Shown here: one piece after another, positions 15,869 to 61,300 of the stretch | Layout: the number at the start of each line of letters is the position of its first letter | Position numbering within the stretch: the stretch's first letter is position 1 | DNA from: an uncultured Clostridium sp. | GTDB lineage: Bacteria > Bacillota > Clostridia > TANB77 > CAG-508 | DNA: 64,000 bases | Reading direction: 5' to 3' | Assembly: GCA_930990645.1 (NCBI GenBank) | Contig: CAKNQJ010000001.1 | Span: forward strand, 22,260-86,259 | The notes under the pieces: generated by a model | Seen by the model: only the letters and a program-made list of their open reading frames with translations | Database searches by the model: none | Told to the model about the DNA's origin: nothing | Program-made: the position numbers and the translations under genes

Positions 15869-16202
15869 TTACTATTTAGATGTTTTTCACCTCAAAATCT
15901 TGAAAAAAACGCTATTTTGCGATAAAATAGTAAAAACAAATTGTTAGAAAAGAAAATAAAAGAAAAGAACACATCACATTTTGTAAAAAACTTTTTTATA
16001 TTATGGATTAAATGTGACAAAAAAGTATTTTCAAATGAACTATAATTAAGTAGCATTAAGTTATGCTATTTGCACGAAAGAAAAACACGAAGAAAGACAT
16101 TAATGCATAAATAAAGGGATGATACAAAAAGGACTAAGGCATTTTAAGGAATACATTGTTAGGTATGCTTTGTATTACTACCTAAGAAAGGTGAGTGTGA
16201 TT

Positions 16203-37800: not shown

Positions 37801-40800
37801 TTTGAAGAAGGGGAGACTACAGCAAAGAAAGATGTAAAAGTAACATATGAAGGATTTGAAACAACATATGAAATTACAATTAAAGACTATATTGCAAAAG
37901 TGGAAATCATACCTCCAAGTAAAACAGAATACAAATATAATGAAGACCTAGATTTATCAGACGCAAAAGTAACAATTACAATGGCAAGTACCCCAGACGA
38001 GCCAATAGAAATACCAGTTACAAGCAATATGATAACAGGTTATGACAAAACACAATTAGAAGAGCAATCAGTAACAATAAAATATACAGATGATGAGGGA
38101 ACAGAACATACAAAACAGTTTGAAGTAAACGTGGTAGATGAAATATTAAGTATGGAACTAGAAGGAACTCCAAAAACAGACTATATTATAGGAGAAGATT
38201 TAGAACTATCTGGACTAAATGTATTAATACATAAATTATCTGGAGATGAAAGAGCTCCAGTAACAGAAGAAATGATATCTGGATATAACAAAGATGAAGA
38301 AGGCTCACAAACAGTAATAGTTACATACAATGAACAAGAAGTAGGAAGATTTGAAGTAAATGTGGCAAATCCAGTAGAAAGACTAGAATGGATTACGAAG
38401 CCAAAAACATCATATGTTATAGGTGATTTATTAGATGTTACAGGTGGAAAGTTTAAGGCAATTAAGAAAAATGGAGACGAAGAAGAAATCGACTTAACAG
38501 AGGGAATGGTATCTGGATTTAATTCATCAACAACAGGAGATAAAACCATAACAGTAACTTATGAAGAAAAAGAATTGACATATCAAATAACTGTAGTAGA
38601 TGTTATAACAGAAATAGAGATAAATGAAACACCAAAAAATAGATACAATTATGGAGAAGAACTAGGAACACCTGGTGGTTCAATTACAGTAAAATATCTA
38701 TCAGGAGCAAATAAAGTAGTAAATATTACACCTGATATGATTACAGACACAGATGGAACACCATTTGATACAACAGATATAACATTTGGAGAAGGACAAA
38801 CTACAGCAAACAAAATGCAAAAAGTAACATATGAAGAATTTGAAACAACATACGAAATTACAATAGTAAACAGTATAAAAGATATAAGACCAACAGAAGA
38901 ACCAAAGAAAAATTATGTAATAGGAGAAGAGTTCCAAGATGACTTAGTGCTAGAGGTAGAAAGAGAAGATGGAACTAAGGTAGAAATACCTGTAACAGAC
39001 GAAATGGTATCTGGATTTGATACAGATACAGAGGGTCCAAAAGAAATAACAATTACATATGAAGAAAACGGAATAGAAAAAGAATACACATATGAAATAA
39101 CTGTAACAGACAGAGTAAACAAAATAGAAATAACAAAAGACCCTAAAAAAGATTACAAATATGGTGAGGACCTAGTAGCAGGAGGAGAAATTACAGTAGA
39201 AAAAGCAAGTGGAGAAAGCGAAGTTATCACAATCACCCCAGAGATGATAACAGGATATGATAAAACACAGCTAGGATCACAAAATGTAACCATAAACTAT
39301 GGCGGACAAACAGTAGACTTTGAAATAACAGTATCTGACTATATTACGGGAGTAGTAATCACACCACCAAGTAAAGTAGAGTATGAGTATGGAGAAGACC
39401 TAGATTTATCAGACGCAAAAGTAACAATTACAATGGCAAGTACCTCAGACGAGCCAAAAGAAGTACCAGTTACAAGTGATATGATATCAGGCTATGATAA
39501 AACTAAAGTAGAATCTCAAACAGTAACAATAACATATAGAGATGATGAAGGAAAAGACCATACAAAAGAATTTGGTGTAACTGTAAAAGATAAAATAAAA
39601 TCAATCACTTTAGAAACAACAGGAGCTAAAACAGAATATAAATATGGAGAAAATATAGATTTAACAAATGTTAAAATGAATGTAGTATATGAAAGTGGTA
39701 ATATAGATGAAATACCAGTAAATACTGGAATGATTAGTGGTTACGATAGTGAAAAGTTAGGAAACCAAACTATTACAGTAGAATATGAAGACTTTACAGG
39801 AACTTTTGAAGTAACAGTAAAAGATTATTTGAAAGATATTAATTTAATACCACCTACAAAAAATGAATATAAAATAGGTGAAAGCTTAGATTTGACAGGT
39901 GGAAAGATTACTGAAATAATGGCTAGTGGAGCAAGTGGAATTTCTCTAGATTTAGCCCTAGATATGGTATCAGGATTTGATAGTAGCACCCCAGGCACTA
40001 AGAAAATTACTGTAACATATACAAAAGATGGAGAAACATATACAAAATATTTTGAAGTTTCAGTAATAAATTCTACTAACAAAATAGAAGTTATAGCACC
40101 TAATAAAACAGATTACAAATATGGTGAAGATTTAGACTTAACAGGTGGAAAAATAGTAATATCAAAAGTTGATGGAACAGAAGAAGAAAAAGAAATAACA
40201 AAAGATATGATTTCTGGATATGATAAAACAAGTCCAGGACAACAGGTAATTACTGTAACATATACAGACGAAAATAATGAAAAATTCACGGGCTCATTTA
40301 TTGTAAATGTAGGAGAAGACTATGTTGTAGGCTATGATTTTACTGCCCCAAGTAAAACAGACTACAAATATGGCGAAGAATTAGATCTAACAGGTGGAAA
40401 AATTACAGAAATAATGGCTAGTGGAAACAAAGGTAAAGTAACAGAAATAACAAAAGACATGGTATCTGGATATAACCCAGAAAAAGAGGGAACACAAGAG
40501 ATTACAGTTAAATATAATGGAAATACATATACTTATACTGTAACAGTAAAAGACGAAATCAAAGGTATTTCGATTAAGGAATACCCAGACAAATTAGAAT
40601 ACAAAAAAGGAGAAACATTAGATGTAACAGGAGGTATTCTAAATGTTGTAAAAGAAAGTGGAATTTACGAAGTAGAAATAACAAAAGATATGGTATCAGG
40701 ATATAATCCTAACAAAACAGGAATTCAAGTAATAACAGTTACTTATGAAGGATTTACAGCAGAATATATGGTGTATGTTGAAAAAGATGAAGAAATAACT

Positions 40801-42048: not shown

Positions 42049-42300
42049 TTAAGTATTTAAGCTGGATAATTTATATAATTCAGATTCATAATAATTATAA
42101 GTATGTTTACCTATAATGTCAGAATAGTTTTTCATCTGTTTATCTTTACAGTATATGTCAACATTTTGACCATCTAAACTTATTGTAACATATCCCATAT
42201 ACTTTTTTTCATGTGATTTTCCAAATAATTTGCCTTGCATTGGACATAATTTAAAAATATCATAATGGTGCAAGTCAGTTTTATTAATAGAAAATTGCAT
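42049..42300 (-). CDS. Hypothetical small protein (83 aa)
   Basis: ORF with a weak RBS. A hairpin lies downstream (AAGACACAGCAAA...TTTGCCGTGTCTT, ~41968-42021). No family recognised. Confidence 0.4.
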   Translation of the reverse strand: MQFSINKTDLHHYDIFKLCPMQGKLFGKSHEKKYMGYVTISLDGQNVDIYCKDKQMKNYSDIIGKHTYNYYESELYKLSSLNT

Positions 42301-42474: not shown

Positions 42475-42882
42475 ATGGAAGATAAAGATGTAAAAACAAA
42501 AAAATTAAATAAAATAAATGAAATAAGAAAGATAAAAAGCAAGAAAATTATTATTATATCAATAATTTCAGTGATAATAATTGCATTTATAGCATTAATT
42601 TGTGTATATGCGTTAGATGCAACAAGAAATACTTTTGGAGGAAAAATATCATCTATATTCGAACAGGATAAAGACATAACTGAAGAAAAGGCTGTTACAA
42701 AGGCATTAGATAGATTTACTGAAATGGGAGAAGAAAATCTAATAACAAATGATTTAGAAGTTTTAAAAATAAATAGAAAAGGTGAGTATTACTACTATAT
42801 CTCATCGCCTCAGAATTCACTGGAAATACGTATTTCAGATGGGAAAATAGTAAGAGAAAATAGTGTGCTAGTAGAAGAATGA
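42475..42882 (+). CDS. Membrane-anchored PepSY-like domain protein
   Basis: I prefer ATG 42475; the track start is TTG 42451. It has a Lys-rich N-terminus, [25 protein letters not shown] and a PepSY-like ITEEKAVTKALD...YYYYISSPQNSLEIRISDGKIV. Confidence 0.6.
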   Translation: MEDKDVKTKKLNKINEIRKIKSKKIIIISIISVIIIAFIALICVYALDATRNTFGGKISSIFEQDKDITEEKAVTKALDRFTEMGEENLITNDLEVLKINRKGEYYYYISSPQNSLEIRISDGKIVRENSVLVEE

Positions 42883-43280: not shown

Positions 43281-43311
43281 AGCAAAACATAAGACTAATT
43301 AGGAGGAGCAA

Positions 43312-46300
43312 ATGAAAGAAACAGGGAATATGGCAAAATTAGAAAAAATAAAAAGCATCAAAAAAACTAGAATGAGAAAAAGACTTAGAGTAGTTGCTAT
43401 TTGTTTAATAATAGTGGCAGCTCTTGCTGTAAAAAATTCTGGTGAAATTCTTAGAGTTTTGAATAATGGAGCTAGTGTGCTCGATTTAAACTCAGCTTTA
43501 ACTGAAAATGACTCAAATACAAGCTTGGCAAGTTCTCAACCTTCTTTAAGCGGTAGTGTTAAACCAATGGTATCAGCTGGACAACACCATTCGCTTATTT
43601 TAAAAGCGGATGGCACTGTATTTGCAATGGGATACAATGCTTATGGACAACTAGGCAATATTACTCTAGCAAATAAAGCCACATATAGTACAGAAATTGT
43701 GCCAGTTTGGATTAAAGAAGGACAGGAACAATTATCTAATATAAAGAAAATTGCTGCAGGATATAACCACAATGTAGCTCTTTCTAATGATGGAGAAGTG
43801 TATACATGGGGATATAATGGATATGGACAGCTTGGAAATGGAAACACAAAAGATACTTCTATTCCAACTAAAATTACGACAAATGCGAAAATAGTCGATA
43901 TTTGTGGTTGGGTAAATAATACACTATTGTTAGACGAAAATGGAGTAGCATATGTTGTAGGACAAAATTATACTGATACCTTAACAAAAGTGGATATAGA
44001 TGAAAAAATAACACAGATATCAGGAAATTTAATACTTACAGAAAATCAAAATGTATACGAAATTAAAAATTTAGCAACTCCTATATCTGGACTTAAAAAT
44101 GTTGAAAAAGTGTATACAGGGTATTTAGGAACATCGACTACAAGTAGAACTGGTTTATATATGGCATTAACAAGTGAAGGTAAGATATATACATGGGGAA
44201 AATCATCTTATGGAGAAGCAGGAACAGGAGCAAATGGCACTATATCCACACCAACATTTGTAAAAATGCCTGACAAAACTGAAGATATGACAGGAATTGT
44301 AGAAGTGGTTGTTGGTAGATATAATGTTATGGCATTGGATAAAAACGGGAAAATATATACCTGGGGATATAATAACTATAGTCAACTTGGTAATGGAAAT
44401 GCAACAAACCAAAGTCTACCAGTTGAAATAACTGATTTGCCACAAATAGCAAGTTTAGGCTCATCACAATATTATCATAGTATAATTCTCGATAAAAATG
44501 GTTTTGTATGGACTACAGGATATAATGGATATGGGCAACTTGGAATAGGTAATACAACAACCAGAACTACTTTTACTAAATTGGGAAATTCATATTTAGA
44601 ATTTACTGATAGACAGAAATATATTAAAGTTGGAGAAACATCGCCAACTACAATAACTGCAAAAGAAGGATTTAATGTATATGATGCTAGTATTTCGCTA
44701 GCTGGAATGAGTTATCAAAGTAGTAATGAAAATGTTGCAACTGTAGACAGTAATGGAAATATTACAGCAAAAGCAAGAGGAAAAGCTACAATAACTGCTA
44801 CAAACCAAGAAGGAGATCAAGCAAGATGTATAGTATATGTAATTTCTAACAAAAATAATACTATTACGCTTCCAAGTGTAACAGTAACGCTAGGAGGAAC
44901 AACAGCAATTTTAAGAGAAGATGGAACAGTATGGACAGCAGGAAATAATGCAAATTATACATTGGGAATAGGAACAGAAATAGGAGCAACTAATCCTGAA
45001 TTTACGCAAGTAAAAATATCTGAAGACGAATATTTAACAGATATAGTAAAAATTGCTGAGTTTGGAAATGCAAGTTTATTAGCATTAACAAAAAATGGAG
45101 AGGTATATTCTTGGGGATCTGGTGCCAATAAAGTATTAGGATTGGGAAATGATACCAAAAATAAAGAATATGCTACAAAAATACCAAATTTAAACAACAT
45201 TATTGATATTGAAATGACAGAATTTGATAATGCAAAAGCACTTACTAAAGATGGGGAAGTATATACTTGGGGGTCTAACCCAAGCTATGATTATCAAGTA
45301 GGTGATACATTTGGAATAAGTGGAACACCTCAAAAGTTAACTACAATAGACAATGTTGTTGATATTTCAACTGGAAATTTCCATATTTTATACTTAAAAA
45401 GTGATGGAACTGTATGGGCAAATGGACATGGTACATATGGACAATTGGGAGTGGGCAGTACATCAAGTTCAACAGTACCAGTACAAGTAAAAATGACTAA
45501 TGGATATTTGAAAAATGTATCAACAATACTTGCAAATGATGATACAAGTGCAATTATAAATAGTGATGGAGATTTATGGGCTTGGGGAGATAATGATTAT
45601 CGCCAATTAGGAAATAACTCTACAACAGATGCAACATTACCTATAAAAGTTAATTTAGTATCAGGTACAAAGGCAGTAACAATAGGAGGAGCTAATGATG
45701 CAATATCATATATTGCAAATGATGGAAAAGTTTATGTTATTGGTTATAACAATAAAGGCCAATTAGCACAAGGAAATGCTAATAATGTAACAACTTGGAA
45801 AACAGCAAAAACAAGTGATGGACAAGACATAACAGGAGCATTTAGCTTAACTAAAGGAGAAGTAACATCTTCATTTATCATAAAACAAGATGGCAGTATA
45901 TGGAGCTGTGGATATAATGCCAATGGACAGCTAGGTACAGGAGACAAGACAGATATTTATTATTATGAACAAATAGGAAAAGCATTTACTGAGTTTAAGG
46001 ATAGAAACAAATTTATTAAAGTAGGAGAAACAGTAAATACAAGTGTAGAAGCAAATGAAGGATTAAATGCTTTTAGAGATTTATTATCAACAAATGGAAT
46101 GACATATAAAAGTGCTAATACTAATGTTGCAAAAGTAGATAATAGTGGAAATATTACTGGTGTAGCAACAGGAGAAACAACAATAATTGCAACAAATGAA
46201 AATGGAGAGCAAGCGAGATGTATTGTATATGTAATAAGGAATAATGATAAAGCAATAACAATTCCAAGTGTTTCAACTACAAATAATGGTGCTGTAGCGA

Positions 46301-49300
46301 TACTAAAGGAAGATGGAACAGTATGGACAGCAGGAAATAATGCAAACTATACATTAGGAAGAGGAAAAGAAGTAAGTGATAATAAAGAGTTTAAACAAGT
46401 AAAAGTATCAGAAAATGAATATTTAACTAATATAATAAAAATCTCAGAAAGTGGAAATGGAAGCTTTTTAGCATTAACTAAAACAGGAGAAGTGTATGCA
46501 TGGGGGTATGGAAGTAATTTTACTTTAGGCTTAGGAACAGATAAAACAAATAAAGAATATGCAACTAAAATACCAAATTTAAAAAATATTATAGATGTAG
46601 AGACCACTTCAAATTATAATGCAAAAGCACTTACTAAAGATGGAGAAGTATATACATGGGGAGGAACTAATACAACTACATTTCAGACAGGAGATAATCT
46701 AATTGGTATAAGTGGAACACCACAAAAGGTAAAAGTTATAAATAATGTTATAGATATTTCGAGCGGATATGCTAGTATTCTATACCTAAAAGGTGATGGA
46801 ACAGTATGGGCGAATGGATTAAATTCTAATGGACAATTAGGAGTAGGAAATACTACAGACTCACAATTCCCTGTACAAGTAAAGATAAATTCAACAAGTT
46901 ATTTGGAAAACATATCTACAATAAAATCAATTGACAGAATAGGCACTGCAATTGATGAAAACGGAAATTTATATTTCTGGGGAGCAAATAACTATTATCA
47001 ATTAGGGACAGGAAATTCAACTGATGTAAAATATGCAACAAAAGCTACTTTAGTAGATGGAACAAAAGCAATAGATGTAGGAGGAGGATACTACTCTACA
47101 TCTTATGTAGCTGATAATGGACTAGTATATACTATCGGATGTAATAATTACGGACAATTGGGCCAGAACAATGAAGCAAATGTTACTAAATGGGCTACAG
47201 CAAAAAATAAATATGGAGAAAACATAACAGGTGCAATGTCTATTAGCAAAGGCTCATACTATTCTAACTTTATAATAAAACAAGATGGAAGTATATGGAC
47301 TGCTGGATATAATGGCTATGGACAGTTAGGTTTGTTAGATACTACAAGTAGAAACTATTTTCAAGAAGTAGGAGAAGCATATTTAGAATTTGAAAACAGA
47401 CAAACTTATGTAAAAGCAGGAGAAAAAATCCAAAATAAAGTAAAAGTACATGCAGGATTTAATGTTTATGATAATCTCTTATCGTTAGATGGAATAAAAT
47501 ATAAAAGCAATGATGAAAATATTGTAAAAATAGATGAAAATGGATATATAACTGGTATTCAAAGAGGAGAAACTTCAATAACTGTAACAAATAGTAATGG
47601 AAATCAAGCAAGAGCTATTGTATATGTAATTTCAAATAACAAAAATGCAATAACAATGCCAGATGTATCTCAAACATTGGATGGAACAACAGCAATACTA
47701 AAAGAAGATGGAACAGTATGGACAGCTGGAAACAATGCAAATTACGCATTAGGAAGAGGAACAACAGTATCTGATAATACAGAGTTTGCTCAAGTAAAAA
47801 TATCAGAAACAGAATATTTAACAAATGTAATAAAAATATCAGAAGAAGGAGAAGCAAGCTTTCTAGCTCTAACCAAAAATGGAGAAGTATATTCTTGGGG
47901 ATATGGTGCAGCAAAAACATTAGGATTTGGAGCAGACACAAAAAATAAAGAGTATGCAACTAAAATACCAAATCTAAAAGATATAATTGATGTAGATGTT
48001 ACAGCATATAACAATGCAAAGGCATTAACAAAAAATGGAGAAGTATACACATGGGGCTCAAATAGTAACTATGAATATCAATTGGGGGATTCTATTACTA
48101 ATGATGGTACACCACAAAAAATAACATTAATAAATAATGTTATTGATATTTCAAATGGATGTGGACATATTCTATATCTAAAAGGTGATGGAACAGTATG
48201 GGCAAATGGATATAATGCACAGGGACAATTAGGAAATGGAACAAAGAGCAACTCAAATGCTCCAGTACAAGTAAAGACCGGAAGTGGTACAGACTATTTA
48301 AAGAATATTAGTAAAATAGCGACTGCATATCATAATTCTGGAGCAATTGATGATAATGGAAATTTATATTTATGGGGAATAAACAATTATTATCAATTGG
48401 GAAATAATAATACAACTGATGCAACTATAGCAACAAAAGTAACACCTAAATCAGGTACGAAAGTATTAAAAGTAGGTGGAGGATATAGATTTTTACTATA
48501 TGAAACAGATGATGGAAAAATATATGGCTCTGGATATAATGCAAACGGAGAACTATCACAAAATAATACAACAAATGTAAAAACATGGACTACACTAAAA
48601 ACAAAAGAAGGAGAAGATTTTACAGGTGCATTTAAATTAGTTAATGGTACAGGAGCTTCAAACATTATTATAAGACAAGACGGAAGTGTATGGGCAGCAG
48701 GAAATAATGACCATGGACAATTAGGATTATATGACACAATTAATAGAAGTTATTTCCAAGAAGTAGGAGAAGCATATTTAGAATTTGAAAATAGACAAGA
48801 TTATGTAAAAATTGGGACAACTGTGCCAAATAAAGTAAAATCTCATATGGGATTCAATGTATTTAATAGTTCAGTAGCAGCTACTGGAATTACATATAAA
48901 AGTAGTAATGAAGATATAGCAACAGTAGATCAAAATGGAAATGTCAAAGGAATAAAAAGAGGAGAAGCTACAATAATTGCAACAAATCAAGAAGGAAAAC
49001 AAGCAAGAGCTATTATATATGTAATATCAAATAACAAGGATGCAATAACTATTCCTAGCGTTTCAACTACATATAATGGAGTAACAGCAATATTAAAAGA
49101 AGACGGAACAGTATGGACAGCCGGAAATAATGCAAATTATGCACTAGGAAGAGGAAAAGAAGTAACTAACAATAGTGAATTTGAACAAGTAAAAATATCG
49201 GAAGATACATATTTAACAAATATAATAAAAATTTCAGAAAATGGGAATGGAAGCTTTTTAGCATTAACTCAAACAGGAGAAGTGTATACTTGGGGAAATG

Positions 49301-52300
49301 GAAGTAATTTTACTTTAGGCTTAGGAACAGATAAAACAAATAAAGAATATGCAACTAAAATACCAAATTTAAAAAATATTATAGATGTAGAGACTACTTC
49401 AAATTATAATGCAAAAGCACTAACTGAAGATGGAGAAGTATATACATGGGGTGGAACTAATACAACCACTTATCAAATAGGTGATAATGCTGTTGAAATT
49501 AGTGGAACTCCAGAGAAGATTAATTCCATAAAAAATGTAGTAGACATTTCTGGTGGTTATGCAAGCATATTATACTTAAAAGGAGATGGAACAGTCTGGG
49601 CAAATGGATATAATGATGATGGACAATTAGGAGTAGGAAATACTACTGAATCAAGAGTACCTGTACAAGTAAAAATAGATAATAAAACTAGCTACTTAAA
49701 GAATATTACTAGTATAGAAACAACGCATAAAGTAGGTGCAGCTATAGACGAAAACGGAAATTTATATTTATGGGGAGCTAATAATTATTATCAATTAGGA
49801 ACAGGAAATACAAATAGTGTAAATATTGCAACTAAAGTGAATTTGGTTGAAGGAACAAAAGCTGTAGAAGTCGGAGGAGGAACATATTTTACTACATATA
49901 TAGCAGATAATGGAAAATTATATGTTCAAGGATATAACGGAAATGGACAGCTATCTCAGGGAGATACTACAACACTAAAAACTTGGACAATAGCTAAAAA
50001 CAAATATGGCGAAGAATTTACAGAAGCATTTAGATTAAGTAATGGTACTTTACAATCAAATGTGGTAATAAAACAAGACGGAAGTGTATGGGCATGTGGA
50101 TATAATGTCCATGGAGAATTAGGCTTAGTAGATACTACAAATAGAAACTATTTGGAAGAAGTTGGAGAGGCATATTTAGAATTTGAGAACAGACAGGAGT
50201 TTATAAAAATAGATGAAACTGTAGCGAATAAAGTAAGTTCACACTTAGGATTTAATGTATTTGACAATTTATTACCAGTGGAAGGAATAGAATACAAAAG
50301 TAGTAATGAAAATATTGCAAAAGTAGATGAAAATGGAAATATTACAGGAGTTGCAAGAGGAGAAGCTACTATTATTGCAACAACTAAAACTGGGGAAAAA
50401 GCTAGTTGCATAATATATGTAATATCAAACAATCCAAAAGCAATAACAATGCCAACAGTATCAATAACAAGAAATGGAGCAATTGCAATATTAAAAGAAG
50501 ATGGAACAGTATGGACAGCAGGAAATAACGCAAATTATGCATTAGGAAGAGGAAAAACAGTAACTGATAATACAGAGTTTGCTCAAGTAAAAATATCAGA
50601 AAGCGAATATCTAACAGGTGTAGTTAAAATATCTGAAAATGGACAGGATAATTTCTTGGCTTTAACAGAAAAAGGAGAAGTATATTCATGGGGATATGGA
50701 GCAGCAAAAGCATTAGGATTTGGTGATGATACAAAAAATAAAGAATATGCAACAAAAATACCAAATTTAAAAGATATAATAGATGTTGAAATAACAGGAT
50801 TTAATAATGCAAAAGCTTTAACAAAAGATGGTGATGTATATACTTGGGGCTCTAATGTGAATTATGAATATCAGATTGGTGATAATTTTGAAATAAGTGG
50901 AACACCGCAAAAAGTAAGACTTATTCATAATGTAATAGATATTTCTGTTGGATATGCAGGCATATTATACTTAAAAGGAGATGGAACAGTCTGGGCAAAT
51001 GGATTAAATGATAGTGGACAACTAGGAAATGGAGCAACATCAAACTCAAAAGTTCCTGTACAAGTAAAAACAAAAGATGGATACTTAGAAAACATAGTAA
51101 AAATAGAAAAAGTAGACGAGGTAGGAGCAGCAATAGATGAAACAGGAGCACTTTACTTATGGGGTAATAATGAATATTATCAATTAGGAACAGGAAACAA
51201 AACAAACTTAACAGTAGCAACAAAAGCAAATATCCCAGAAGGAGTAAAGGCAGTAGAAGTAGGTGGATCAAGATGTGCTATTATGTATAGTGCAAGTGAT
51301 GGAAAAGTATATACTGTAGGATATAACAATTATGGACAACTTGCACAAAATAATACAACTAATGTAACTTCTTGGACAACGGTTAAAACCAAAGAAGGAG
51401 AGGACTTTACAGGAGCATATAGACTAGGAAAGAACTCATATTATTCAAATGTGATAATTAAAGAAGAAGGAAGCGTATGGGGAGTAGGACATAATAACTA
51501 TGGACAACTTGGATTAATTGATACTACAAGTAGATCTTATTTACAAGAAGTAGGAGAATCTTATATAGAGTTTGAAAATAGACAAGCTTATATAAAAATA
51601 GGAGATACAGTAACTAATAAAGTACAATCACATTTGGGATTCAATGTGTTTGATGAAGCTTTATCAGTAACTGGTATAACATACAAAAGCAGTAATGAAA
51701 ATATTGCAAAAGTAGATGAAAATGGAAATATTACTGGAATTGCAAGAGGAGAAGTTACAATAACAGCAACAAGTACAAGCGGTGATGTAGCAAAAGCTAT
51801 TATCAATGTAATTTCAAATAATGAAAATGCAATAACAATACCAACAGTATCTACGACTAGAACAGGAACAATAGCAATATTAAAAGAAGATGGAACAGTA
51901 TGGACAGCAGGAAATAATTCAAACTATGCATTAGGAAGAGGAGAAACTGTAACAAATACATTTGAATTTGATAGAGTAAAAGTATCAGAAGATACATACT
52001 TATCTAATGTAGTCAAAATATCGGAAAATGGATATGGAAACTTTTTAGCTTTAACCAAAGATGGAGAGGTATATTCATGGGGATATGGAGCAGCAAAAGC
52101 ATTAGGATTTGGTGATGATACAAAAAATAAAGCTTATGCAAGCAAAATTCCAGATTTAAAAGATGTTATTGACATTGATATGACAGGATTTAATAATGCA
52201 AAAGCATTAACAAAAGATGGGCAAGTATATACCTGGGGCTCTAATGCAAATAACGAATATCAAATTGGTGATAATTTTGAAATAAGTGGTGTACCACAAA

Positions 52301-55300
52301 GAGTAAGACTTATCAAGAATGTAATAGATATTTCTGGTGGATATGCAGGCATATTATACTTAAAAGGAGATGGGACAGTTTGGGCAAATGGATTAAATGA
52401 TAATGGACAGCTAGGAAATGGAGTAACAACAAACTCAAAAGTTCCTGTACAAGTAAAAGTAGCTGATGGATACTTAGATAAAATAGTAGAAATTGAATAT
52501 GTTGATGATGTAGGATCAGCAATAGATGAAGAAGGAAACTTATATTTATGGGGAAATAATGAATATTATCAATTAGGAAATGGAAACAAAACAAATCTAA
52601 AAGTAGCTACAAAAGCAAATTTACCAGAAGGAGTAAAAGCAACAGAAGTAGGTGGCTCAAGACGTGCATTAGAATTTATATCTAATGATGGAAAAGTATA
52701 TGTTGTTGGATATAACAATTATGGACAATTATCACAAGGAAGCACTAGTACAATAACATCATGGACAACAGCTAAAACAGCAGATGGAGCAGAAGTTACA
52801 GAAGCATATAGACTAAGCAAAGGGTCATATTATTCAAATGCAGTAATAAAACAAGATGGAAGTGTATGGACAGTCGGATATAATGCTTATGGACAGTTAG
52901 GACTACTAGATACAACTTCTAGAAACTATTTAGAACAAGTAGGAGAAGCAGAGTTTACACCAAAGAAATATGAACATACTATCAAAGTAAATGAAAGCAT
53001 TTTGTTAGATAAAGATGATTTTGAATATGCTAAAGATTTTAATGTTTTTGTAGAAGAAATAAGAGAAATCGGAAACCTAAGTTTCGAGTCTCAAAATACA
53101 GATATTGCAACTGTAGACACAAAAGGAAACATTATAGGCATCAAACAAGGACTAGCAAGAATAAAAGTTACAAATCAATTAAATGGGGATATAACCTATG
53201 TAGTAGTTAAGGTAACAGATGGAAAAGTTGAGCCAATGTTAGCGCAAGGACAAAATCATACAATTGCACTAAAATCAGATGGTAGTGTATGGGGATTTGG
53301 AAATAATTCATATGGACAAATAGGAAATATTAATCTAAATGAAAGTAAATATGTAGCAGATCCAGTTCCTGTATGGATAACAGAAGGCAAAGAGCAATTG
53401 ACTAACATAAAGAAAATAGCAGTAGGATATAATCATTCAGTAGCACTATCTAATGATGGAGAAGTGTACACATGGGGGTATAACCAATATAAGCAATTAG
53501 GATATAGTGGTACAAGTAGTAATAAACCAACAAAACTAAGTTTTGACGCAAAAATAATAGATATTAGTGGATGGCAAAATAATACAATTGTATTAGATGA
53601 AAATGGAAATGTATATGCATGGGGATATAATTTTACAACAAGCATTAGTAAGATAGAATTACCAGAAAAAGCAATACAAATTTCAGGAAATTTAATACTA
53701 ACAGAAAACAAAAAAGTATATCAAGCAAATAAACCTCAAACTCCAATATCAGGTTTAAAAAATGTTATAAAAGTATTTTCAGGTTATTTTAATGGAAGCA
53801 ATGGAGATTTTGCAGCTTTAACAGATGAAGGAAAAATATATGCTTGGGGAATAAATTCATATGGAGAAGCTGGAAATGGTGCAACAGGAAGTGTATCAAA
53901 ACCTGCATATGTAAAAACATCTGACGGATTAGCAGATTTAACAGGTATCATTGATATGAATCTAACAAGATATGGTGTTATAGCATTAGATTATGAAGGA
54001 ACATTATATGGATGGGGATATAATGGATATGGACAAATTGGCAATAATGATAAAACAACACAAAAATTACCTGTTGTAATAGATGATATGCCAGAGATTG
54101 AAGTATTAGGCAACGCAGGATATTATCATAATGCATTTATGGATGTAAATGGTTTTGTATGGACAGTAGGATATAATGCAAATGGACAATTGGGAAATGG
54201 AACTAATACTAATAGTGCAGTTTATAATATGATTGGCGACTTAAAAATACAGGCAAGCGAGTCTAAAGTAAGGATACATATAGGAGACAAAAAAGCTATA
54301 ACAGCTGAAGCCAGAAATACATTTAATCTAAAATATGATACAGTTAATACACAATTAACATATCATATGCAAGATGAAAATATCGCAACATATGAAAATG
54401 GAGAAATAGTAGCAAAAAGTGTAGGAAGTACATACTTAATAATAGAAAGTGAACAATTAGATGTAAGCACTGCAGTAAAAGTTGAAGTATTACCAGATGA
54501 AAAACAAGCTATTCCAAGTGTGCAGTCAGGAATTGATTTTTCAGTAGCATTAAAAGCAGACGGAAGTGTTTGGACATGGGGTAACAACACTTATGGACAA
54601 CTAGGTAATGGTACTAAAATAGCACAAAATGAGCCAGTGGAGACAGATATTAAAGATATAGTTACAGAAATATCTGTTGGAGAGTATCATGTATTAGCAT
54701 TAACAGGAAATGGAGAAGTATACAGCTTTGGATATAATGGTAATGGCAGATGTGGAAATGGTACAACTTCAGCAGTTGCTACACCAGTTCAAGTAAAAAC
54801 TTTGGAAAACAGTAAAGAAACAGTATTAAAAGACATAATTAAAGTAAAAGCTGGAAAAACAGTAAGTTTTGCAATAGACAAAGACCTTAATCTATGGGCA
54901 TGGGGTAAAGGATACACAAAATATGCAGAAAAGGTTGCAAACCTAGAAAATATAATAGATGTTACACAAGATTATGTATTAACAGCAGAAGGAAAAGTGT
55001 ATAAATTATCTGACAACAGCAAAGTTTTAACAGTAGATAAAGTAAGAAAACTAGAAGAAGGTTATGACCATACAGTAATGGTAACAGAAAAAGGCGGAGC
55101 TTACGCAATAGGTAAGAACACATATGGTCAATTAGGAACAGGAAATACTACAGATAGTTTAGATTCTGTTGTGGGAGTAAGACAATCTGATGGAGAAACA
55201 TTATTTACAAATGTAAAAGATGTACAAGCAGGAAATGGAAATACAGCAATATTTACATATGATAATAAAGTATATTTCTTAGGCTCAAATGCAAATAGTA

Positions 55301-58300
55301 AATTAGGACAAGCAGTAGAAGTTACAAATAACGTACTTCCAGTAGAATATACAAATGTAGAAAATCCAATGCTTGTTTCACTTGGATATAATCATACCGT
55401 AATTGCAAATGGAGAAGGCTTTGTATATGACTTTGGAGCTGGAACATTAGGTCAATTAGGTAATTTAAAGAACGAAGATAGTATAAATCCTGTATTAGTA
55501 GGAACATATAATATATCTTTAAGCAGCATGGTAGTAAGAATGCATGTGAATGAGCAAGAAGATATACAAGCTAAAATGGACTTCTTCAACTTATTATTAG
55601 AAGATACTGAAGGGCTTGAATATGAATCATATGACGATACAGTAGCAAAAGTAGATGATGAAGGAATAATAACAGGTGTAGGAGCAGGAACTACATATAT
55701 AGAATTTAGACAAGCAGGAACAGATAACAGGAAAGTAATAATTGTAGAAGTATTGGCAGAAAATCAAGTGGCTAAACCACAAGTAGAAACAAACGGAAGT
55801 CATACTATTATACTAAAAGCGAATGGTACAGTATGGAGCTTTGGACAAAACGCAAATGGAGAATTAGGAGATGGAAGTTATACTACAAAAGATGGTACAG
55901 TTAAAGTTCAATTTGATAAAAATACTAAAATAGTACAAATTGATGCTGGCACATCACACAATATAGCATTAGATATAGATGGTAATGTTTGGACATGGGG
56001 AAGTAACAGTTACTATCAATTAGGAAGAAGCAGTACAAATGCTAATATACCAGGAAAAGTAACAATGCCAGAAGAAATAGTAAAAGTAGCAGCAGGAAAT
56101 AATTACAGCTTGGCAATAGGAAAAAGTGGTAAAGCATATGCATGGGGATACAATGCAAATGGAGAGCTAGGAGTAGGAACATATAAAACAGTAACAAGGC
56201 CAGCGGAGATAGTTGGAATAGAAAATGTAATAGATATTTCTGGTGGAAATAATCATTCTATTCTAGCAACAACAACAGGAGAAGTATATACAACAGGAGA
56301 TAATACTTATGGCCAATTAGGAAGCACAGGAAGTAAAATAAATCTATTTACTAAAGTGTCAGGAGTAGAAAATGTAATAGATGTAGAGGCAGGAGAAGTA
56401 CATAATATTGTGCGTACATTGGAAGAAAATGTTTATACATGGGGAAGCAATATATATGGTCAATTAGGTTTAAATGATAGACAAAATAGATATGTTCCAA
56501 CTTTAATAGATGGAAAAACCAATATAGCAGAAATAGCAGCAGGAAAAGCTAATACTATGTTATTAGATAGAAGCGGAAAAGTATATATTACAGGTTTAAA
56601 TAGTTGTGGTGAAATTGGAGATGGAACTACAGACACAAAGCAAGAATATGTACAAGTAGAAAAAATACCTGCTGGAATAGGAATTACAACAGGTGAAACA
56701 TATTCATTAGCTATAAGAGCAGACGGCACAGTATGGGCATGGGGAGACTATAACCATGGAGCAGAAGATGCAAATAGCAAAACAAAAAGTAAAGTGCCTG
56801 TAATGATAGGAACATTCTCAGCATTAGAAACTAGCTCAGAAATAGTATTAAAAACTAGTGAGACAACAAATATTGGTATAAGTGCAAAAGAAAAATTCAA
56901 TGTATTCTATGATTATGATAAAGAACCAGAAGATTATACATATGAATCTTTAAATCCAGAGATAGCAGATATAAATGCAGAAGGAACAATCATAGGAGTA
57001 CAAATAGGAAAAACTAGAGTAATAGCAACAGATAAAGAAACTGGAGAAAAATTCTCTGTAATTGTAACAGTAATTGAAAATACAAAAGTTGCAGTTCCTC
57101 AAATAGATGGTGGAAATGGATTCGCAGTAACATTAAAAGCTGATGGTACAATTTGGACATGGGGATATAACCCAGAAGGAGCATTAGGAGACGGAACTTA
57201 TGAAACAGCATTAATACCAAGAAGAGCAAATGTAGTATCAACATACTCTGACATAGCAGTAGGAAAAGACTTTGCAATAGCAAGAAGAGCAGATGGAACA
57301 GTATGGGCATGGGGCTCAAACGCTCATGGACAACTTGGAATAGGAAGTCATAAAAATGCACCAAAATTAGTACAAACATATAATATACAAAATGTAAAAA
57401 TGATAGCAGCAGGAGCTGAACATACGGTTGCAGTAGACCAATATGGAATATTATATGGTTGGGGTTCAAATACTCGTGGTCAATTAGGATTAGGCAGCAA
57501 AGATGATGTAATAACACCTACCATTATTGCTACACCAGAGGACTCAATAATTAGTTTAGCAGCTGGTGGAGACCAAACAGCATATGTGACAATTCAAGGA
57601 GAAGTATATGGATTAGGAAATATACTAAATGGTAAATTAGACGGAATAGAAAATGTAATACAAGTAGAAGTCGGGGATAACTATTTATTATTACTAGATG
57701 CAAATGGAGATATCTATGAATACAGTAACAGTAGTATAAGCAAAATACAAGGAACAAGCAATGTAGTAGATATAGTAGCAAAGAAACATATAAGAATGTA
57801 CCAAGATAAAGACGGAATAACGTATAATTGGGGAGAAAATACATATGGTGAATTAGGAACAAACGATACAGAGACTAAAACAGTTCCTACGAAAGTTTCT
57901 GAAAATGGAGAAAATACATTTAATATAGGAGCTGGATATGAAAATTCATACATAATTAAAACTGATGGATTTGCGTATGGAGCTGGTAGAAATAACCATG
58001 GACAATTAGGAAACAGTATGCAAGAAGATTCTAAAGTTCATACATTAGTTGGAGATAGAGACTTTGAATTAAATCCAGATAATATGATATTAACTGTAAA
58101 TGATGTAAAAAACATAAAAATTGCATGTAACACATTTAATGTATTTAATGAAGTTGAAAGAAATGCTAATGATTATGACTGGATTTCTTCTGAAACTGAA
58201 GTTGCATCAGTTTCAAATGGAATGGTAGTTGCAAAAGATATGGGAACAACAACTATAACTGCAAGAGACAAAGTTACGAATGTTGAAAAACAGGCATTAG

Positions 58301-61300
58301 TAGTTGTAATGCCAGTAGATGAACATAGAATAGACGAAATTACAGTAAATGGTGAGCTTGCAAAAGTTGCAGGAGATAAAAAATATAGTGTAACAATAGC
58401 AAGTGATAAAGAAACAGCAACTATAAGAATAGAAACACTAGATAAAACAGATAAAATAAGCATAGATGGAGGACAAAGTTATATTGAAGGTGGAGTTCTA
58501 GTTCAAGAGATTGCGGTACCAGATAAAGTAACAAACTTACCAATAAAAATACAAACATCAAATGGTACAATAATAGACTATACACTAGAAATAACAAGAA
58601 CATCTAAAAATACAAATATACAAAGCATAAAAGTAAATGATATAGATGCAACACCAATTAATGCAACAGAATATCAAGTAGTAGTTGAAGAAGATGTAAA
58701 TGAGATTAATATTGAAGCTATAGCAGAAAATGCAGATGCAACGGTAAGCATAAATGGGGAAACTTATCAAAAAGCAAAAGCAGAGTATCAAACATCAATG
58801 GATGAATTAATACTTACAATTCCTATTTCGGTAAAATCTGAGAGCGAAACAGTTGCAACATACATGCTTACAATATACAAAAAATCAACATTAGTAGATT
58901 TAGATAGTTTAGTAGTAAATGGACAAGAAGCAAAAAGAATATCTGAGACAGCATTTAATAGCGTAATTGAAAGAGATGCAGACATGTCTACCATAATTGC
59001 TACAACTACATATAATTTATCAAGAGTATCTATTGCAGGAAATGAAGCATTGGTACATACTGCAACAAATATAGTAGAAACAACAGAAGAAGCAACAGAA
59101 GTATTAATAACAGTAACAGCAGATTATGAGAACGAAGTACTATCGCGTGAATATACATTAACAATATACAAAGAAAGGGAAAATGCAAAAATTGACTTGT
59201 TAATAGTAAATAACACAACCATAATCCCAGAAGGAAATACATATGTTGCAAACTTACCAAATAGTAGTGAAGAAGCAGAAGTAAGAGTAGTAACTGCGCT
59301 AGAAAGTGACAAAGTACAAATTGCGGATACAGAAGAAGGAATTTATGATGTAACAAGAACTGTAAAAACACCAGAAGAAGAAAATACATATACAATAGTA
59401 GTTACAGATGGTGAAACTGGTGAGAAACAACAGTATACATTAATAATAACAAAACCAAGTGCAGACACATCTATAAAAGAAATAATAGGGGAAAATATAG
59501 AGGAAAATTACCAAGAAAAAGCAGAGTTAGTAGAGCCTAACACATATGAACTAAAAGTGCTAGATACAATGGAAGAAGTGGATTTAAAAGTTACAGCAGG
59601 AAGTAAGAGTGCAAAAGTAAGCATAGATGGGGGAGCTTACCAAGAAGAAAAGGCAGAAAGTACAATAAAATTAAATCCAGATGAGCAAGTAGATGGAGTA
59701 GTAAAACAAGTTCATATAACTGTAGAAGCAGAAAATGGATCTCAAAAAGAGTATGTGTTAAATATAATAATAATTGATAATGATACAGCATTAAAACAAG
59801 TTACAGTAAATGGAATACAAGCAGAACTATCAAGTACAGAAGAAAACACATATAATTTAACCCTAGATGCTGAACTGGATAAAGTAGATGTAACTGCCGA
59901 GACAGTAAGTCCAAAATCACAAGTATCTATAAATAATGGAAGTGGTAAATTAAATATTTCTACAGAGACTATTGTTATGGATAGCAAAAACAAACAAGTA
60001 AAAATAGTAGTGAAAGCAGAAAGTGGAAGAATACAAGATTATTACTTAAATATTTATGGATTACCAAATAACACAAATGCAGTATTTACAGTAGATGGCG
60101 AAGAAGGAACATTTGTGCCAGAGGAGAATAAATATGTATTTAGAGTAAATACAAAAAATAATTCTCATACATTATCTGCTATATTAGAGGATAATTTAGC
60201 AAAAGTGAAATTAGCAGACCAAGAGGAAAAATTATCACAAGACACATTAACATTTACAAATGATTTGATAGGACAAGAAATAACCGCTATTATTACAGCA
60301 CAAGACGGAACACAAGAAACAATTACAATAGAATTCCAAGCAAAATCTAGTGATGCAGAAATTGCAAAATTAGCAGTAAATAACGAAATACTAGAGGCAG
60401 ATGAAAGTGGAAATTATAATGCAAAAGTAGCACAAAGTGCTGGTATAGCCAATATTGAAATTGAATTAAGTGACGAAAATGCAAGTGTTCTATTAAAGAA
60501 TGGAGAAGAAGAATTACAAACAGGTAAAGCAGGTTTAAGCTATGACCTATCAATAGCAGAAATTACAGATAAAGAAATAGTATTAAATATAGTTGTAACT
60601 GCAGAAGATGGAACTACAAAAACATCTACACTAACACTAACTATTTTAAGAGGAAACACAAATATAGCAAATATTACTGTAGATGGGAATACAGTTAGTC
60701 AAAGTGAAGATGGAACATATTACTATGTAATGGAAAGAAAAGATACAGCAGAAATTTCTGTAACAGCTGAAGATACATCTTCAAAAATAGAAATAGATGA
60801 AGAAGTTTCTTCTAATAACATATTAACAAAAACAATAGAAACACCAGAAGAAGAAAATAGAATAGGAATAACAATAACAGCAGAAGATGGAACAGAAGAA
60901 ACATATATATTGGTAATAAGAAAAATCTCAAATGACAACTATCTTCAAACTATAATGGCAGAAGGAATAGACCCAAGTATGATAACATCAACAGGCGTGG
61001 ATGCATATGAAATTAAAGTTCCATTAAGCCAAAAAACATTAAGAATTACAGCTATAACTAGACATGATGCAGCATCCGTAAAATTAAGTACAGAAGATGA
61101 CACTTTATATAATCTAAAAGAAATGACAAGAGATGTAACATTATCAGGAGGAGGCGCTTCAGAACAATTTAAAATTACTGTAAAAGCAGAAAATGGAGAG
61201 CTAAGAGAATATACAATAACAGTATCAAAACAAAATGTATTAGATATAGAAAGTGTAGAAGCAAGTGGTGAAGAGGCAGTATTTGATGCGGAGAAAAATG

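What the first reader, a model, noticed from the sequence alone, without database searches (positions are those of the whole stretch)
44590..52940. Six tandem 1.39-kb Big_2+propeller modules with two alternating subtypes and long identical DNA tracts
The marker for EDGTVWTAGNNANY recurs at 44917, 46309, 47704, 49099, 50497 and 51886, a period of 1389-1398 nt that is always a multiple of 3. Modules 2 and 4 carry the subtype GSNFTLGLGTDKTNKEYATKIPNLKNIIDVETTSNYNAKAL. They share a 94-nt perfectly identical tract (46510-46603 = 49300-49393, offset 2790 nt). Modules 3, 5 and 6 carry the subtype GAAK.LGFG.DTKNK.YA.KIP.LKD(I/V)IDV. Modules 5 and 6 share a 64-nt identical tract (50680-50743 = 52069-52132, offset 1389 nt). 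This suggests an ancestral two-module (2.79-kb) unit and ongoing gene conversion or unequal recombination. Module copy number is therefore likely to vary between strains.
Basis: seen in the sequence. Interest (0 to 1): 0.7.

Follow-up and report, generated by a model that had tools for sequence, protein, structure and literature searches.

The report
Six-propeller repeat in giant surface protein
A giant cell-surface protein gene of an uncultured gut-type Clostridium relative carries six tandem copies of a 465-residue "Ig domain plus RCC1 propeller" unit; the copies are old, and two short stretches were recently copied between them, which is the ordinary way such repetitive surface proteins evolve.

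Summary

The array lies inside one gene, from 43312 to beyond the window end. The same gene is 7,436 aa in a near-identical metagenome contig. It encodes an N-terminal signal or anchor, 11 RCC1-like seven-bladed propellers (10 of them preceded by a Big_2 Ig domain), and about 20 cadherin-like domains.

The six modules are 57-76% identical in protein. They form one clade, and the two closest available genomes have a single module in that position, so this is a lineage-specific expansion.

Synonymous sites between modules are saturated everywhere except two patches: M2/M4 (about 240-365 nt) and M5/M6 (about 390 nt). Segment trees conflict with one another. That points to old duplicates patched by intragenic gene conversion. 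It does not support a young two-module duplication. The A/B subtypes exist only within about 90-200 residues.

Strain-level copy-number variation was not seen. The only other assembly covering the array is 100% identical.

RCC1-type giant extracellular proteins of gut Clostridia are already described. This is a new member of a known kind, of low to moderate interest.

The parts
43312..64000 (+). Giant surface-protein gene. The ATG at 43312 follows an AGGAGG ribosome-binding site at 43302-43307. The gene runs off the window end and is 7,436 aa in the near-identical contig L001.
   Evidence: Stop-free frame 43303-63999; start context; Pfam RCC1/WD40_RLD, Big_2 and Cadherin-like; gene length from L001.
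43312..43569 (+). N-terminal region: a basic stretch, then the hydrophobic segment VVAICLIIVAALAV (Sec signal peptide or N-terminal membrane anchor), then a Ser-rich linker.
   Evidence: Read from the translation. No signal-peptide predictor was available, so this is an inference.
43570..44589 (+). P0: the first RCC1-like propeller. It has no preceding Big_2 domain. It is about 30% identical to the six modules and 55-57% identical to the propeller of U7.
44590..45981 (+). Module M1 (464 aa; Big_2 + seven-bladed RCC1-like propeller). The most divergent copy: 57-59% aa and 69% nt identity to the others.
45982..47376 (+). Module M2 (465 aa).
47377..48771 (+). Module M3 (465 aa).
48772..50169 (+). 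Module M4 (466 aa). Its structure was modelled: an Ig-like domain at residues 1-85, a linker, and a propeller at residues 96-463.
50170..51558 (+). Module M5 (463 aa).
51559..52947 (+). Module M6 (463 aa). Closest to M5 (76% aa, 81% nt).
46315..46676 (+). M2 side of the M2/M4 conversion patch: 362 nt at 92% identity, a core of about 240 nt (about 46429-46676) at 95%, and a perfect 97-nt sub-tract at 46508-46604. It encodes propeller blades 2-3.
49105..49466 (+). M4 side of the same patch, with the perfect sub-tract at 49298-49394. The offset is 2790 nt, which is in frame.
50680..51069 (+). M5 side of the M5/M6 low-divergence patch: 390 nt at 90% identity, with a perfect 64-nt sub-tract at 50680-50743.
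52069..52458 (+). M6 side of the same patch, with the perfect sub-tract at 52069-52132. The offset is 1389 nt, which is in frame.
52948..58056 (+). Four further, mutually divergent Big_2 + propeller units, U7-U10 (26-30% identical to one another; 26-34% to M1-M6). They are colinear with their orthologues in L003/L004 at 41-61% identity.
58300..64000 (+). Stalk of about 20 cadherin-like beta-sandwich domains with a period of about 95 aa. It contains a higher-order repeat, 61765-62581 ~ 63184-64000 (76% nt identity).

Best explanation
The region is the N-terminal half of one giant (7,436 aa) secreted or cell-surface protein of an uncultured, low-GC, spore-forming Clostridia bacterium.

Architecture: after a signal or anchor segment, the protein strings together 11 RCC1-like seven-bladed beta-propellers. 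Each except the first is preceded by a Big_2 Ig-like spacer. A stalk of about 20 cadherin-like domains follows. Six consecutive [Big_2 + propeller] units (M1-M6, 463-466 aa each) are paralogues produced by a lineage-specific tandem expansion of a single ancestral unit.

Age and patching (shown): the duplications are old, because synonymous sites are saturated. The copies have since exchanged short patches by non-reciprocal intragenic recombination, that is, gene conversion. One patch of about 240-365 nt is shared by M2 and M4. One of about 390 nt is shared by M5 and M6. A probable older patch links M3 and M5. Each of the first two patches contains a perfectly identical core (97 nt and 64 nt), which suggests repeated or recent events.

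Inferred, not shown:
- The propellers are the ligand-binding (adhesive) parts. The Ig and cadherin-like domains act as spacers and stalk.
- The identical cores are long enough to allow RecA-dependent unequal crossing-over. That would delete or duplicate 930 aa or 463 aa in frame.
For: One gene and its domain content:
- Searches show a single frame. WD40_RLD scores 1346 bits against a cut-off of 150. RCC1, Big_2 and Cadherin-like all pass their gathering scores.
- PDB sequence search: HERC2 RLD, UVR8 and RCC1 at E = 1e-45 to 1e-29.
- AF2 model (pLDDT 70.5): an Ig-like domain plus a seven-bladed propeller. Foldseek gives UVR8/HERC2/RCC1 at TM 0.69-0.79 and E = 1e-23.

Lineage-specific expansion:
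- The six modules are monophyletic with 100% bootstrap against the single best-matching unit of L003/L004.
- All six have that one unit as best hit (43-49% identity). U7-U10 map one-to-one and colinearly at 41-61%.

Old duplicates:
- pS is 0.42-0.50 for every pair except M5-M6 (0.36).
- Codon identity at same-residue columns equals the codon-usage expectation outside the patches.

Conversion patches:
- pS is 0.16 for M2-M4 in alignment positions 450-702, and 0.21-0.33 for M5-M6 in positions 450-1050.
- Codon identity is 69 of 77 against 47 expected, and 79 of 93 against 57 expected.
- Permutation tests give p < 0.0005 and p = 0.0005.
- Segment trees are incongruent.
- The perfect cores are themselves unlikely within their patches (p = 0.003-0.03).

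Not an assembly artefact: an independent k=141 assembly is identical, and a k=87 assembly breaks exactly at the repeated 87-mer.

Precedent:
- RCC1-type giant extracellular proteins in gut Clostridia (bioRxiv 10.1101/2023.11.21.568195).
- Bifidobacterial wall-anchored proteins with a spacer domain before each of 2-4 RCC1 domains, the domain number varying between strains (PMC4449606).
Against: - No ligand, localisation or expression data exist. The C-terminus (about 540 aa, possibly the wall anchor) lies outside the window.
- The structure model is of moderate confidence and rests on a six-sequence alignment.
- Trees are neighbour-joining on BLOSUM distances from short segments.
- Monophyly of M1-M6 could also arise from ancient concerted evolution of units that were once orthologous to the divergent L003/L004 units, rather than from de novo duplication.
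- The closest comparators are only 41-49% identical, so the timing of the expansion is crude.
- No polymorphism in module number or tract content was seen in the one other assembly that covers the array.
Confidence: 0.8

Rival explanations
1. A two-module (2.79 kb) unit [A-type, B-type] was duplicated fairly recently, giving alternating whole-module subtypes. The identical tracts are leftovers of that duplication plus ongoing homogenisation.
For: - In the segment at residues 150-234 the pattern along the array is B-like, A, B, A, B, B. There, M2+M4 has 100% bootstrap and M3+(M5,M6) has 88%.
- M2-M4 and M3-M5 have slightly lower non-synonymous divergence than the average pair.
- Syntenic relatives (L076-L082) do show a two-unit periodicity of about 950 aa, with M-like units alternating with divergent units.
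Against: - Outside the patch, M2-M4 pS is 0.37-0.55 and M3-M5 pS is 0.42-0.61, the same as unrelated pairs and at the saturation level.
- M2+M4 loses support in the Big_2 segment and in the last blades, and falls to 24% once the patch is removed.
- In the Big_2 segment the tree roughly follows positional order (M1, M2, then M3-M6) but with only 62-65% bootstrap support. It is not an alternation.
- The alternation seen in relatives is between unit types only about 30% identical. It is not the A/B patch.
Confidence: 0.1
2. The identical tracts are assembly or consensus artefacts of short-read metagenome assembly. The repeats were collapsed or mis-threaded, and the true module number or sequence differs.
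For: - The sequence appears to be metagenome-derived.
- One assembly (L002, k=87) does break inside the 97-nt tract, so the region is hard to assemble.
- Repetitive giant genes are commonly fragmented.
Against: - An independent k=141 assembly from another sample reproduces 43312-52882 without a single difference.
- The longest exact repeat (97 nt) is shorter than k=141 and shorter than typical reads.
- The modules are otherwise 19-31% divergent at nucleotide level, so reads place uniquely.
- The reading frame is intact across 20.7 kb.
Confidence: 0.04
3. The local nucleotide identity is maintained by selection on the DNA or mRNA itself (codon choice, mRNA structure or an embedded element), or by strong protein-level constraint. 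It is not due to recombination.
For: - The marker region (alignment positions 300-450) has somewhat reduced pS in all pairs (0.24-0.45).
- There is a modest excess of identical codons in alignment positions 0-450 for all pairs. Some site-specific codon constraint or old multi-way exchange therefore exists.
Against: - The strong signal is pair-specific: M2 with M4 only, and M5 with M6 only. The other four modules encode similar peptides with different codons at the same positions.
- No ORF of 100 aa or more on the opposite strand lies under the tracts.
- Selection would not produce sharp patch boundaries or incongruent trees.
Confidence: 0.04

Closest known systems
RCC1-type giant extracellular proteins of gut Clostridia (West-Roberts et al., bioRxiv 10.1101/2023.11.21.568195)
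   Same: Both are very large predicted extracellular proteins built from many RCC1-like seven-bladed propellers, from Clostridia of mammalian gut metagenomes (human, mouse, rabbit). The relatives found here come from the same kinds of samples.
   Different: - The described class is reported from Oscillospiraceae, with a single repeating domain along the whole protein and no membrane anchor.
- This protein is smaller (7,436 aa). It has Big_2 spacers between propellers, an N-terminal hydrophobic segment and a long cadherin-like stalk.
- Its nearest genomes are labelled Clostridiaceae or Clostridium sp..
Cell-wall-anchored multi-RCC1-domain proteins of honeybee-gut Bifidobacterium (Ellegaard et al. 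2015, PMC4449606)
   Same: Both are surface proteins in which each RCC1 propeller (about 7 repeats) is preceded by a small beta-rich spacer domain. Both have 2-4 or more propellers per protein. In both, the domain number differs between lineages, and evolution is by duplication and divergence.
   Different: - The spacer there is Flg_new (Listeria-Bacteroides repeat), not Big_2.
- Those proteins are much shorter and LPxTG-anchored. The C-terminus here is not in the window.
- They occur as tandem gene families rather than one giant gene.
Fibrillar adhesins and repeat-rich surface proteins that evolve by intragenic recombination (e.g. Helicobacter pylori CagY, PMC2194252; fibrillar adhesin surveys PMC8286594, PMC9210967)
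   Same: Both have a stalk of tandem Ig-like or cadherin-like domains plus putative binding domains. Both have in-frame direct DNA repeats whose recombination keeps the reading frame.
   Different: - CagY-type repeats are short and highly similar, and rearrangement has been observed directly.
- Here the repeat unit is 1.39 kb, the copies are only 69-81% identical, just two short tracts are recombinogenic, and no rearranged variant has been seen.
Eukaryotic RCC1-like domains (RCC1, HERC2 RLDs, UVR8) and Streptomyces BLIP-II
   Same: The same seven-bladed propeller fold and sequence family. BLIP-II shows that a bacterial secreted RCC1-like propeller can be a pure protein-binding module.
   Different: Nothing here suggests Ran-GEF, UV-B sensing or beta-lactamase inhibition. 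Sequence identity is 20-24%. The context is an extracellular multi-propeller array.

Membership tests
RCC1-like domain (Pfam PF25390 WD40_RLD / PF00415 RCC1) | Sequence match above Pfam's curated gathering score | tested here: met
   WD40_RLD scores 1346.6 bits (cut-off 150) and RCC1 891 bits (cut-off 21.7) for residues encoded by 43330-53301. A PDB profile search finds HERC2, UVR8 and RCC1 at E = 1e-45 to 1e-29.
RCC1-like domain (Pfam PF25390 WD40_RLD / PF00415 RCC1) | Seven-bladed beta-propeller fold | tested here: met
   The AF2 model of M4 (pLDDT 70.5, pTM 0.69) shows strand groups consistent with seven blades after an Ig-like domain. Foldseek gives UVR8 at TM 0.77-0.79 (normalised to the target) and E = 1e-23. 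Model confidence is moderate.
RCC1-like domain (Pfam PF25390 WD40_RLD / PF00415 RCC1) | Guanine-nucleotide exchange activity on Ran-type GTPases (RCC1 proper) | not testable with these tools
   This is a biochemical property. It is implausible for an extracellular bacterial protein, and no claim is made.
Big_2 bacterial Ig-like domain (PF02368) | Sequence match above the gathering score, one per module | tested here: met
   Big_2 scores 183.4 bits (cut-off 22.8) with 5 significant stretches in the first half of the protein. The model has a beta-sandwich at residues 1-85 of the module. Every module aligns over this domain.
RCC1-type giant genes of gut Clostridia (bioRxiv 10.1101/2023.11.21.568195) | Protein made of a single repeating domain type (RCC1) along its entire length | tested here: not met
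   Big_2 spacers are present, and the last ~1,900 aa within the window are cadherin-like domains.
RCC1-type giant genes of gut Clostridia (bioRxiv 10.1101/2023.11.21.568195) | Clostridia from mammalian gut metagenomes; predicted extracellular | tested here: inconclusive
   Relatives come from human, mouse, rabbit and goat gut MAGs labelled Clostridia, Clostridium or Clostridiaceae. The source organism and habitat of the window itself carry no name. Extracellular location is inferred only from the N-terminal hydrophobic segment.
Fibrillar adhesins (PMC8286594) | Stalk of tandem repeated Ig-like or cadherin-like domains | tested here: met
   Cadherin-like (PF12733) scores 216.6 bits with 8 or more significant stretches. 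The period is about 95 aa from about 58.3 kb to the window end.
Fibrillar adhesins (PMC8286594) | A surface anchor (LPxTG, SLH, cell-wall-binding repeats and so on) and a demonstrated adhesive domain | not testable with these tools
   The C-terminal ~540 aa lie beyond the window and could not be fetched. Adhesion needs an experiment.
Contingency / phase-variable repeat locus | Repeat copy number differs between strains or within populations | tested here: inconclusive
   One other assembly spans the array and is identical. Four contigs in total carry the flanking genes. No closer strains could be retrieved. By contrast, the neighbouring Big_3 gene's 39-nt repeat does vary.
Intragenic gene conversion between tandem paralogous modules | Pair-specific tracts with sharply reduced synonymous divergence, significant by permutation, and phylogenetic incongruence along the repeat | tested here: met

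The most novel reading that the evidence does not exclude
The array is a functioning contingency locus. Gene conversion keeps short perfectly identical 'landing pads' (97 nt between M2 and M4, 64 nt between M5 and M6) inside otherwise diverged 1.39-kb modules. RecA-mediated unequal crossing-over at these pads then produces, at appreciable frequency, in-frame variants with 4, 5, 7 or 8 propellers and chimeric blades. That would vary the length, valency and antigenicity of a giant gut-bacterial adhesin within populations.
Probability: 0.12. Interest if true: 0.45.

Novelty: new member of a known kind. Interest (0 to 1): 0.25.

Why it matters
Giant repetitive surface proteins of uncultured gut Clostridia are abundant, mostly unannotated and often broken in assemblies. 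This locus is a clean, fully in-frame example. It shows how such proteins grow: lineage-specific tandem expansion of a whole Ig + propeller unit, from one copy to six. It also shows how old copies keep exchanging short patches.

Practically, it marks two exact repeats (97 nt and 64 nt) that break short-read assemblies and could seed in-frame deletions or duplications. That matters for anyone assembling or comparing these genes.

It does not reveal a new kind of system or mechanism.

Tried and rejected
- Whole-protein homology searches failed. The 6,890-aa query was over the length limit and the 4,998-aa query timed out.
- The N-terminal 430-aa query returned only generic RCC1 proteins of about 30% identity and 753 aa or shorter. 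It returned no orthologue and no self-hit.
- The genome-contig scan with N-terminal peptides found nothing.
- An exact 46-nt tract pattern in metagenome contigs found nothing. The profile scan there gave no relative above 40% identity.
- Look-ups of the two small flanking ORFs returned the same four contigs each time. No additional strains could be compared.
- Homologues of the small ORF at 85% and 70% identity sit on contigs of 1.3-1.7 kb, too short to reach the array.
- The SpoIIE search and the cluster look-up gave no organism names.
- A self-BLASTP of the whole protein returned only the diagonal. It was replaced by unit-by-unit comparison.
- I considered and rejected a seventh M-type unit. 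The Big_2 of U7 gives only short, partial local matches to the M-type Big_2 domains (30-51% identity over 47-78 aa; no hit to M5 or M6), and its propeller is P0-like.
- I considered and rejected an overlapping antisense gene under the tracts.

Full report
OBSERVATION

The finding lies inside one very long stop-free frame on the + strand, from 43303 to the window end. The likely start is the ATG at 43312, six bases after AGGAGG.

The marker EDGTVWTAGNN[A/S]NY is at 44917, 46309, 47704, 49099, 50497 and 51886. The sixth copy has S for A. Spacings are 1392, 1395, 1395, 1398 and 1389 nt, all divisible by 3. The repeat finder recovers six-copy families with the same spacing across the whole unit.

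The first identical tract is exact and extends to 97 nt (46508-46604 = 49298-49394). The second is exact and maximal at 64 nt (50680-50743 = 52069-52132).

I set module boundaries at 44590, 45982, 47377, 48772, 50170 and 51559, with the array ending at 52947. This gives units of 463-466 aa.

WHAT THE UNITS ARE

Pfam assigns the region to RCC1-like domains (WD40_RLD 1346 bits, RCC1 891 bits) and Big_2 (183 bits). The second half of the protein has further RCC1 units and then Cadherin-like domains.

A profile of the six modules matches solved RCC1-like domains (HERC2, UVR8, RCC1) at E = 1e-45 to 1e-29.

An AlphaFold model of M4 (pLDDT 70.5) has a beta-sandwich at residues 1-85 and then a propeller. 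Foldseek places it with UVR8, HERC2 RLDs, RCC1 and, more distantly, the bacterial BLIP-II.

Scanning the whole protein with an HMM of the modules, then comparing units pairwise, gives this map:
- a signal or anchor segment;
- propeller P0;
- six modules M1-M6;
- four divergent Big_2 + propeller units, U7-U10;
- about 20 cadherin-like domains.

M1-M6 are 57-76% identical to each other and about 30% identical to every other unit. P0 and the U7 propeller, which flank the array, are 55-57% identical to each other.

IS IT REAL, AND IS IT ONE ASSEMBLY'S ARTEFACT?

An exact look-up of the small ORF just upstream (42475-42882) found four contigs.
- L001 is a 157-kb contig from a k=141 assembly of another sample. 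It is colinear with window 32397-52882 and has no difference at all inside the giant gene. Its three apparent SNPs fall in a 39-nt tandem repeat of the upstream gene, where it has two fewer units. In L001 the giant gene is called at 7,436 aa.
- L002, from a k=87 assembly, is 100% identical but ends at window 46594. That is exactly 87 nt into the 97-nt tract, as expected at a de Bruijn branch point.

The six-module order and the M2/M4 tract therefore do not come from one assembly.

HOW DIVERGED ARE THE COPIES?

Nucleotide identity is 0.69 for M1 against all others, 0.70-0.73 for most pairs, 0.764 for M2-M4 and 0.806 for M5-M6.

Sliding windows show that M2-M4 reaches 95-97% only in alignment positions about 450-675. 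M5-M6 is raised (81-93%) only from about 450 to 1050.

Nei-Gojobori estimates give pS of 0.42-0.50 for every pair except M5-M6 (0.36).

As a control I counted identical codons at columns where two modules encode the same residue. I compared that count with the number expected if codons were drawn from the gene's own usage. Outside the two patches the observed count equals the expected one. M1-M3 in positions 450-702 gives 33 against 36, and M2-M4 in positions 702-1050 gives 49 against 48. Synonymous sites are therefore saturated and the duplications are old. The exceptions are:
- M2-M4 in positions 450-702: 69 of 77, against 47 expected;
- M5-M6 in positions 450-702: 54 of 67, against 42 expected;
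- M5-M6 in positions 702-1050: 79 of 93, against 57 expected.

GENE CONVERSION

A GENECONV-style test permuted the order of the 771 polymorphic ungapped sites:
- M2-M4: a run of 44 concordant sites, never reached in 2000 permutations.
- M5-M6: 29 sites, global p = 0.0005.
- M3-M5: 19 sites, pairwise p = 0.0005 but global p = 0.08.

Maximal-scoring low-divergence segments are:
- 46315-46676 = 49105-49466, at 92% identity with a core of about 240 nt at 95%;
- 50680-51069 = 52069-52458, at 90% identity.

The perfect cores are themselves unlikely gaps within these patches (p = 0.003-0.02 for the 97-nt core, p = 0.03 for the 64-nt core). This suggests nested or repeated events rather than one event.

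Segment-wise bootstrapped NJ trees, with the L003/L004 module as outgroup, conflict with one another:
- M5+M6 is recovered everywhere.
- M2+M4 is recovered only for residues 150-350 (100% and 88%).
- M3+M4 (65%) is recovered for residues 350 to the end.
- In the Big_2 segment the tree tends to follow positional order (M1, M2, then M3-M6), but only at 62-65% bootstrap.
- Without residues 150-234, M2+M4 falls to 24%.

This is the signature of patchy non-reciprocal exchange among old paralogues.

THE TWO-SUBTYPE, TWO-MODULE-UNIT IDEA

The quoted A peptides (M2, M4) and B peptides (M3, M5, M6) are real, and M1 is intermediate. They are confined to blades 2-3 and largely coincide with the converted patch.

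A duplication of [M2 M3] into [M4 M5] predicts equal, reduced divergence for M2-M4 and M3-M5 along the whole unit. Instead both pairs are saturated outside the patch, and the trees disagree along the module. I consider this part of the interpretation unsupported.

COMPARATIVE EVIDENCE

A scan of one genome per species with the module profile returned 69 loci.
- The best are two MAGs labelled uncultured Clostridiaceae and Clostridium sp. (L003 and L004, 46-49% identity over the full module).
- Next come many gut Clostridia MAGs from human, mouse, rabbit and goat, at 33-39%.
- Giant ORFs with tandem units of about 465 aa are common among them. Examples are five in a row in L007 and six full-length units in L016 and L017.

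In a tree of 57 full-length modules, the six window modules form one clade, sister to the single unit of L003/L004. The L007 modules also cluster by genome. The mouse and rabbit group clusters by position.

Mapped unit by unit, U7-U10 have colinear one-to-one orthologues in L003/L004 at 41-61%. All six M modules best-hit the same single unit (43-49%). P0 best-hits the U7 orthologue. Copy number of this unit therefore differs between species, six against one, as a lineage-specific expansion.

Syntenic loci reached through homologues of the small upstream ORF carry a 10,373-aa orthologue. In it, M-like units alternate with divergent units at a period of about 950 aa.

No closer relative was found in the metagenome collection. 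Strain-level variation could not be assessed beyond the one identical assembly.

MECHANISM AND FUNCTION

Shown:
- the gene structure, domain identities and paralogy;
- old duplication with recent local conversion;
- interspecies copy-number difference.

Inferred:
- The protein is exported. It has an N-terminal basic region plus a hydrophobic segment with an ALA motif.
- The cadherin-like domains act as a stalk, and the propellers are ligand-binding heads held apart by Ig spacers. This rests on analogy with fibrillar adhesins and with protein-binding RCC1-like propellers such as BLIP-II.
- The 97-nt and 64-nt identical cores are long enough for homologous recombination. Their offsets (2790 nt and 1389 nt) are in frame, so unequal exchange would yield 4-, 5-, 7- or 8-module proteins. 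No such variant has been observed.

RELATION TO WHAT IS KNOWN

RCC1-type giant extracellular proteins of gut Clostridia have been described (bioRxiv 10.1101/2023.11.21.568195). So have bifidobacterial wall-anchored proteins with a spacer domain before each of 2-4 RCC1 domains, whose domain number varies between strains (PMC4449606).

In-frame recombination among intragenic repeats of surface proteins is classical; CagY is one example (PMC2194252).

This locus differs in detail: Big_2 spacers, a cadherin-like stalk, and six old copies with two short conversion patches. It does not differ in kind.

VERDICT

Gene conversion is supported. The two-module ancestry is not. Strain variation is untested. 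This is a new member of a known kind. Interest is about 0.25.

Noticed in passing
window 40876-41024 (inside the Big_3 gene 34885-41640): A 39-nt tandem repeat (3.8 copies, 99% identical) encodes an Asn-rich low-complexity stretch (residues inferred from the repeat consensus, not translated). The gene is 2,251 aa here and in L002, but 2,225 aa in L001, which has two units fewer. This is real repeat copy-number variation between assemblies of the same organism, right next to the finding. In related species the same gene ranges from 1,369 to 2,481 aa.
   Followed up: partly
window ~43570-44589 and ~53200-54260: The first propeller (P0) and the propeller of the unit just after the array (U7) are 55-57% identical paralogues that bracket the six modules. 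P0 has no orthologue of its own in L003/L004; its best hit there is the U7 orthologue. The N-terminal half of the gene has therefore been rearranged on a larger scale than the six-module array.
   Followed up: partly
window 61765-62581 and 63184-64000: The cadherin-like stalk has a higher-order repeat: about 820 nt at 76% identity with an offset of 1419 nt (about five domains). It runs to the window end.
   Followed up: partly
L002 (ENA ERZ1478606 k87_2245923), ending at window 46594: The k=87 contig ends exactly 87 nt into the 97-nt M2/M4 identical tract. This is a textbook de Bruijn branch point. It warns that short-k assemblies will fragment this gene family at conversion tracts.
   Followed up: yes
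window 5064-10298 and 10313-15808: Two more adjacent giant ORFs (1,744 and 1,831 aa) carry SdrD_B, DUF11 or CarboxypepD_reg-like domains. Together with the Big_3 gene and the RCC1 gene, at least 38 kb of the 64-kb window encodes very large surface-type proteins, interspersed with housekeeping genes (a PBP transpeptidase, spoIIE at 16119-18692, a histidine kinase).
   Followed up: no
L076-L082 (syntenic loci of related species), giant gene from about 10750: The orthologous gene is called at 10,373 aa. In its first 3,200 aa, M-like units (HMM score about 250-270) alternate regularly with divergent units at a period of about 950 aa. This is a two-unit super-repeat, unlike the homogeneous six-copy run in the window.
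   Followed up: partly
L072 10806-12086: In one related MAG (GCA_944391785.1) a 426-aa AAA_14/DUF4143 ATPase gene sits between the small upstream ORF and the giant gene. The first 2,660 aa of that giant gene contain no full M-type module.
   Followed up: no
window 42049-42300 (-) and 42475-42882 (+): Two small ORFs without Pfam hits (83 aa and 135 aa; the latter has an N-terminal hydrophobic segment) are conserved in synteny immediately upstream of the giant RCC1 gene across several related species at 45-85% identity. They may be accessory or regulatory partners of the giant protein.
   Followed up: partly
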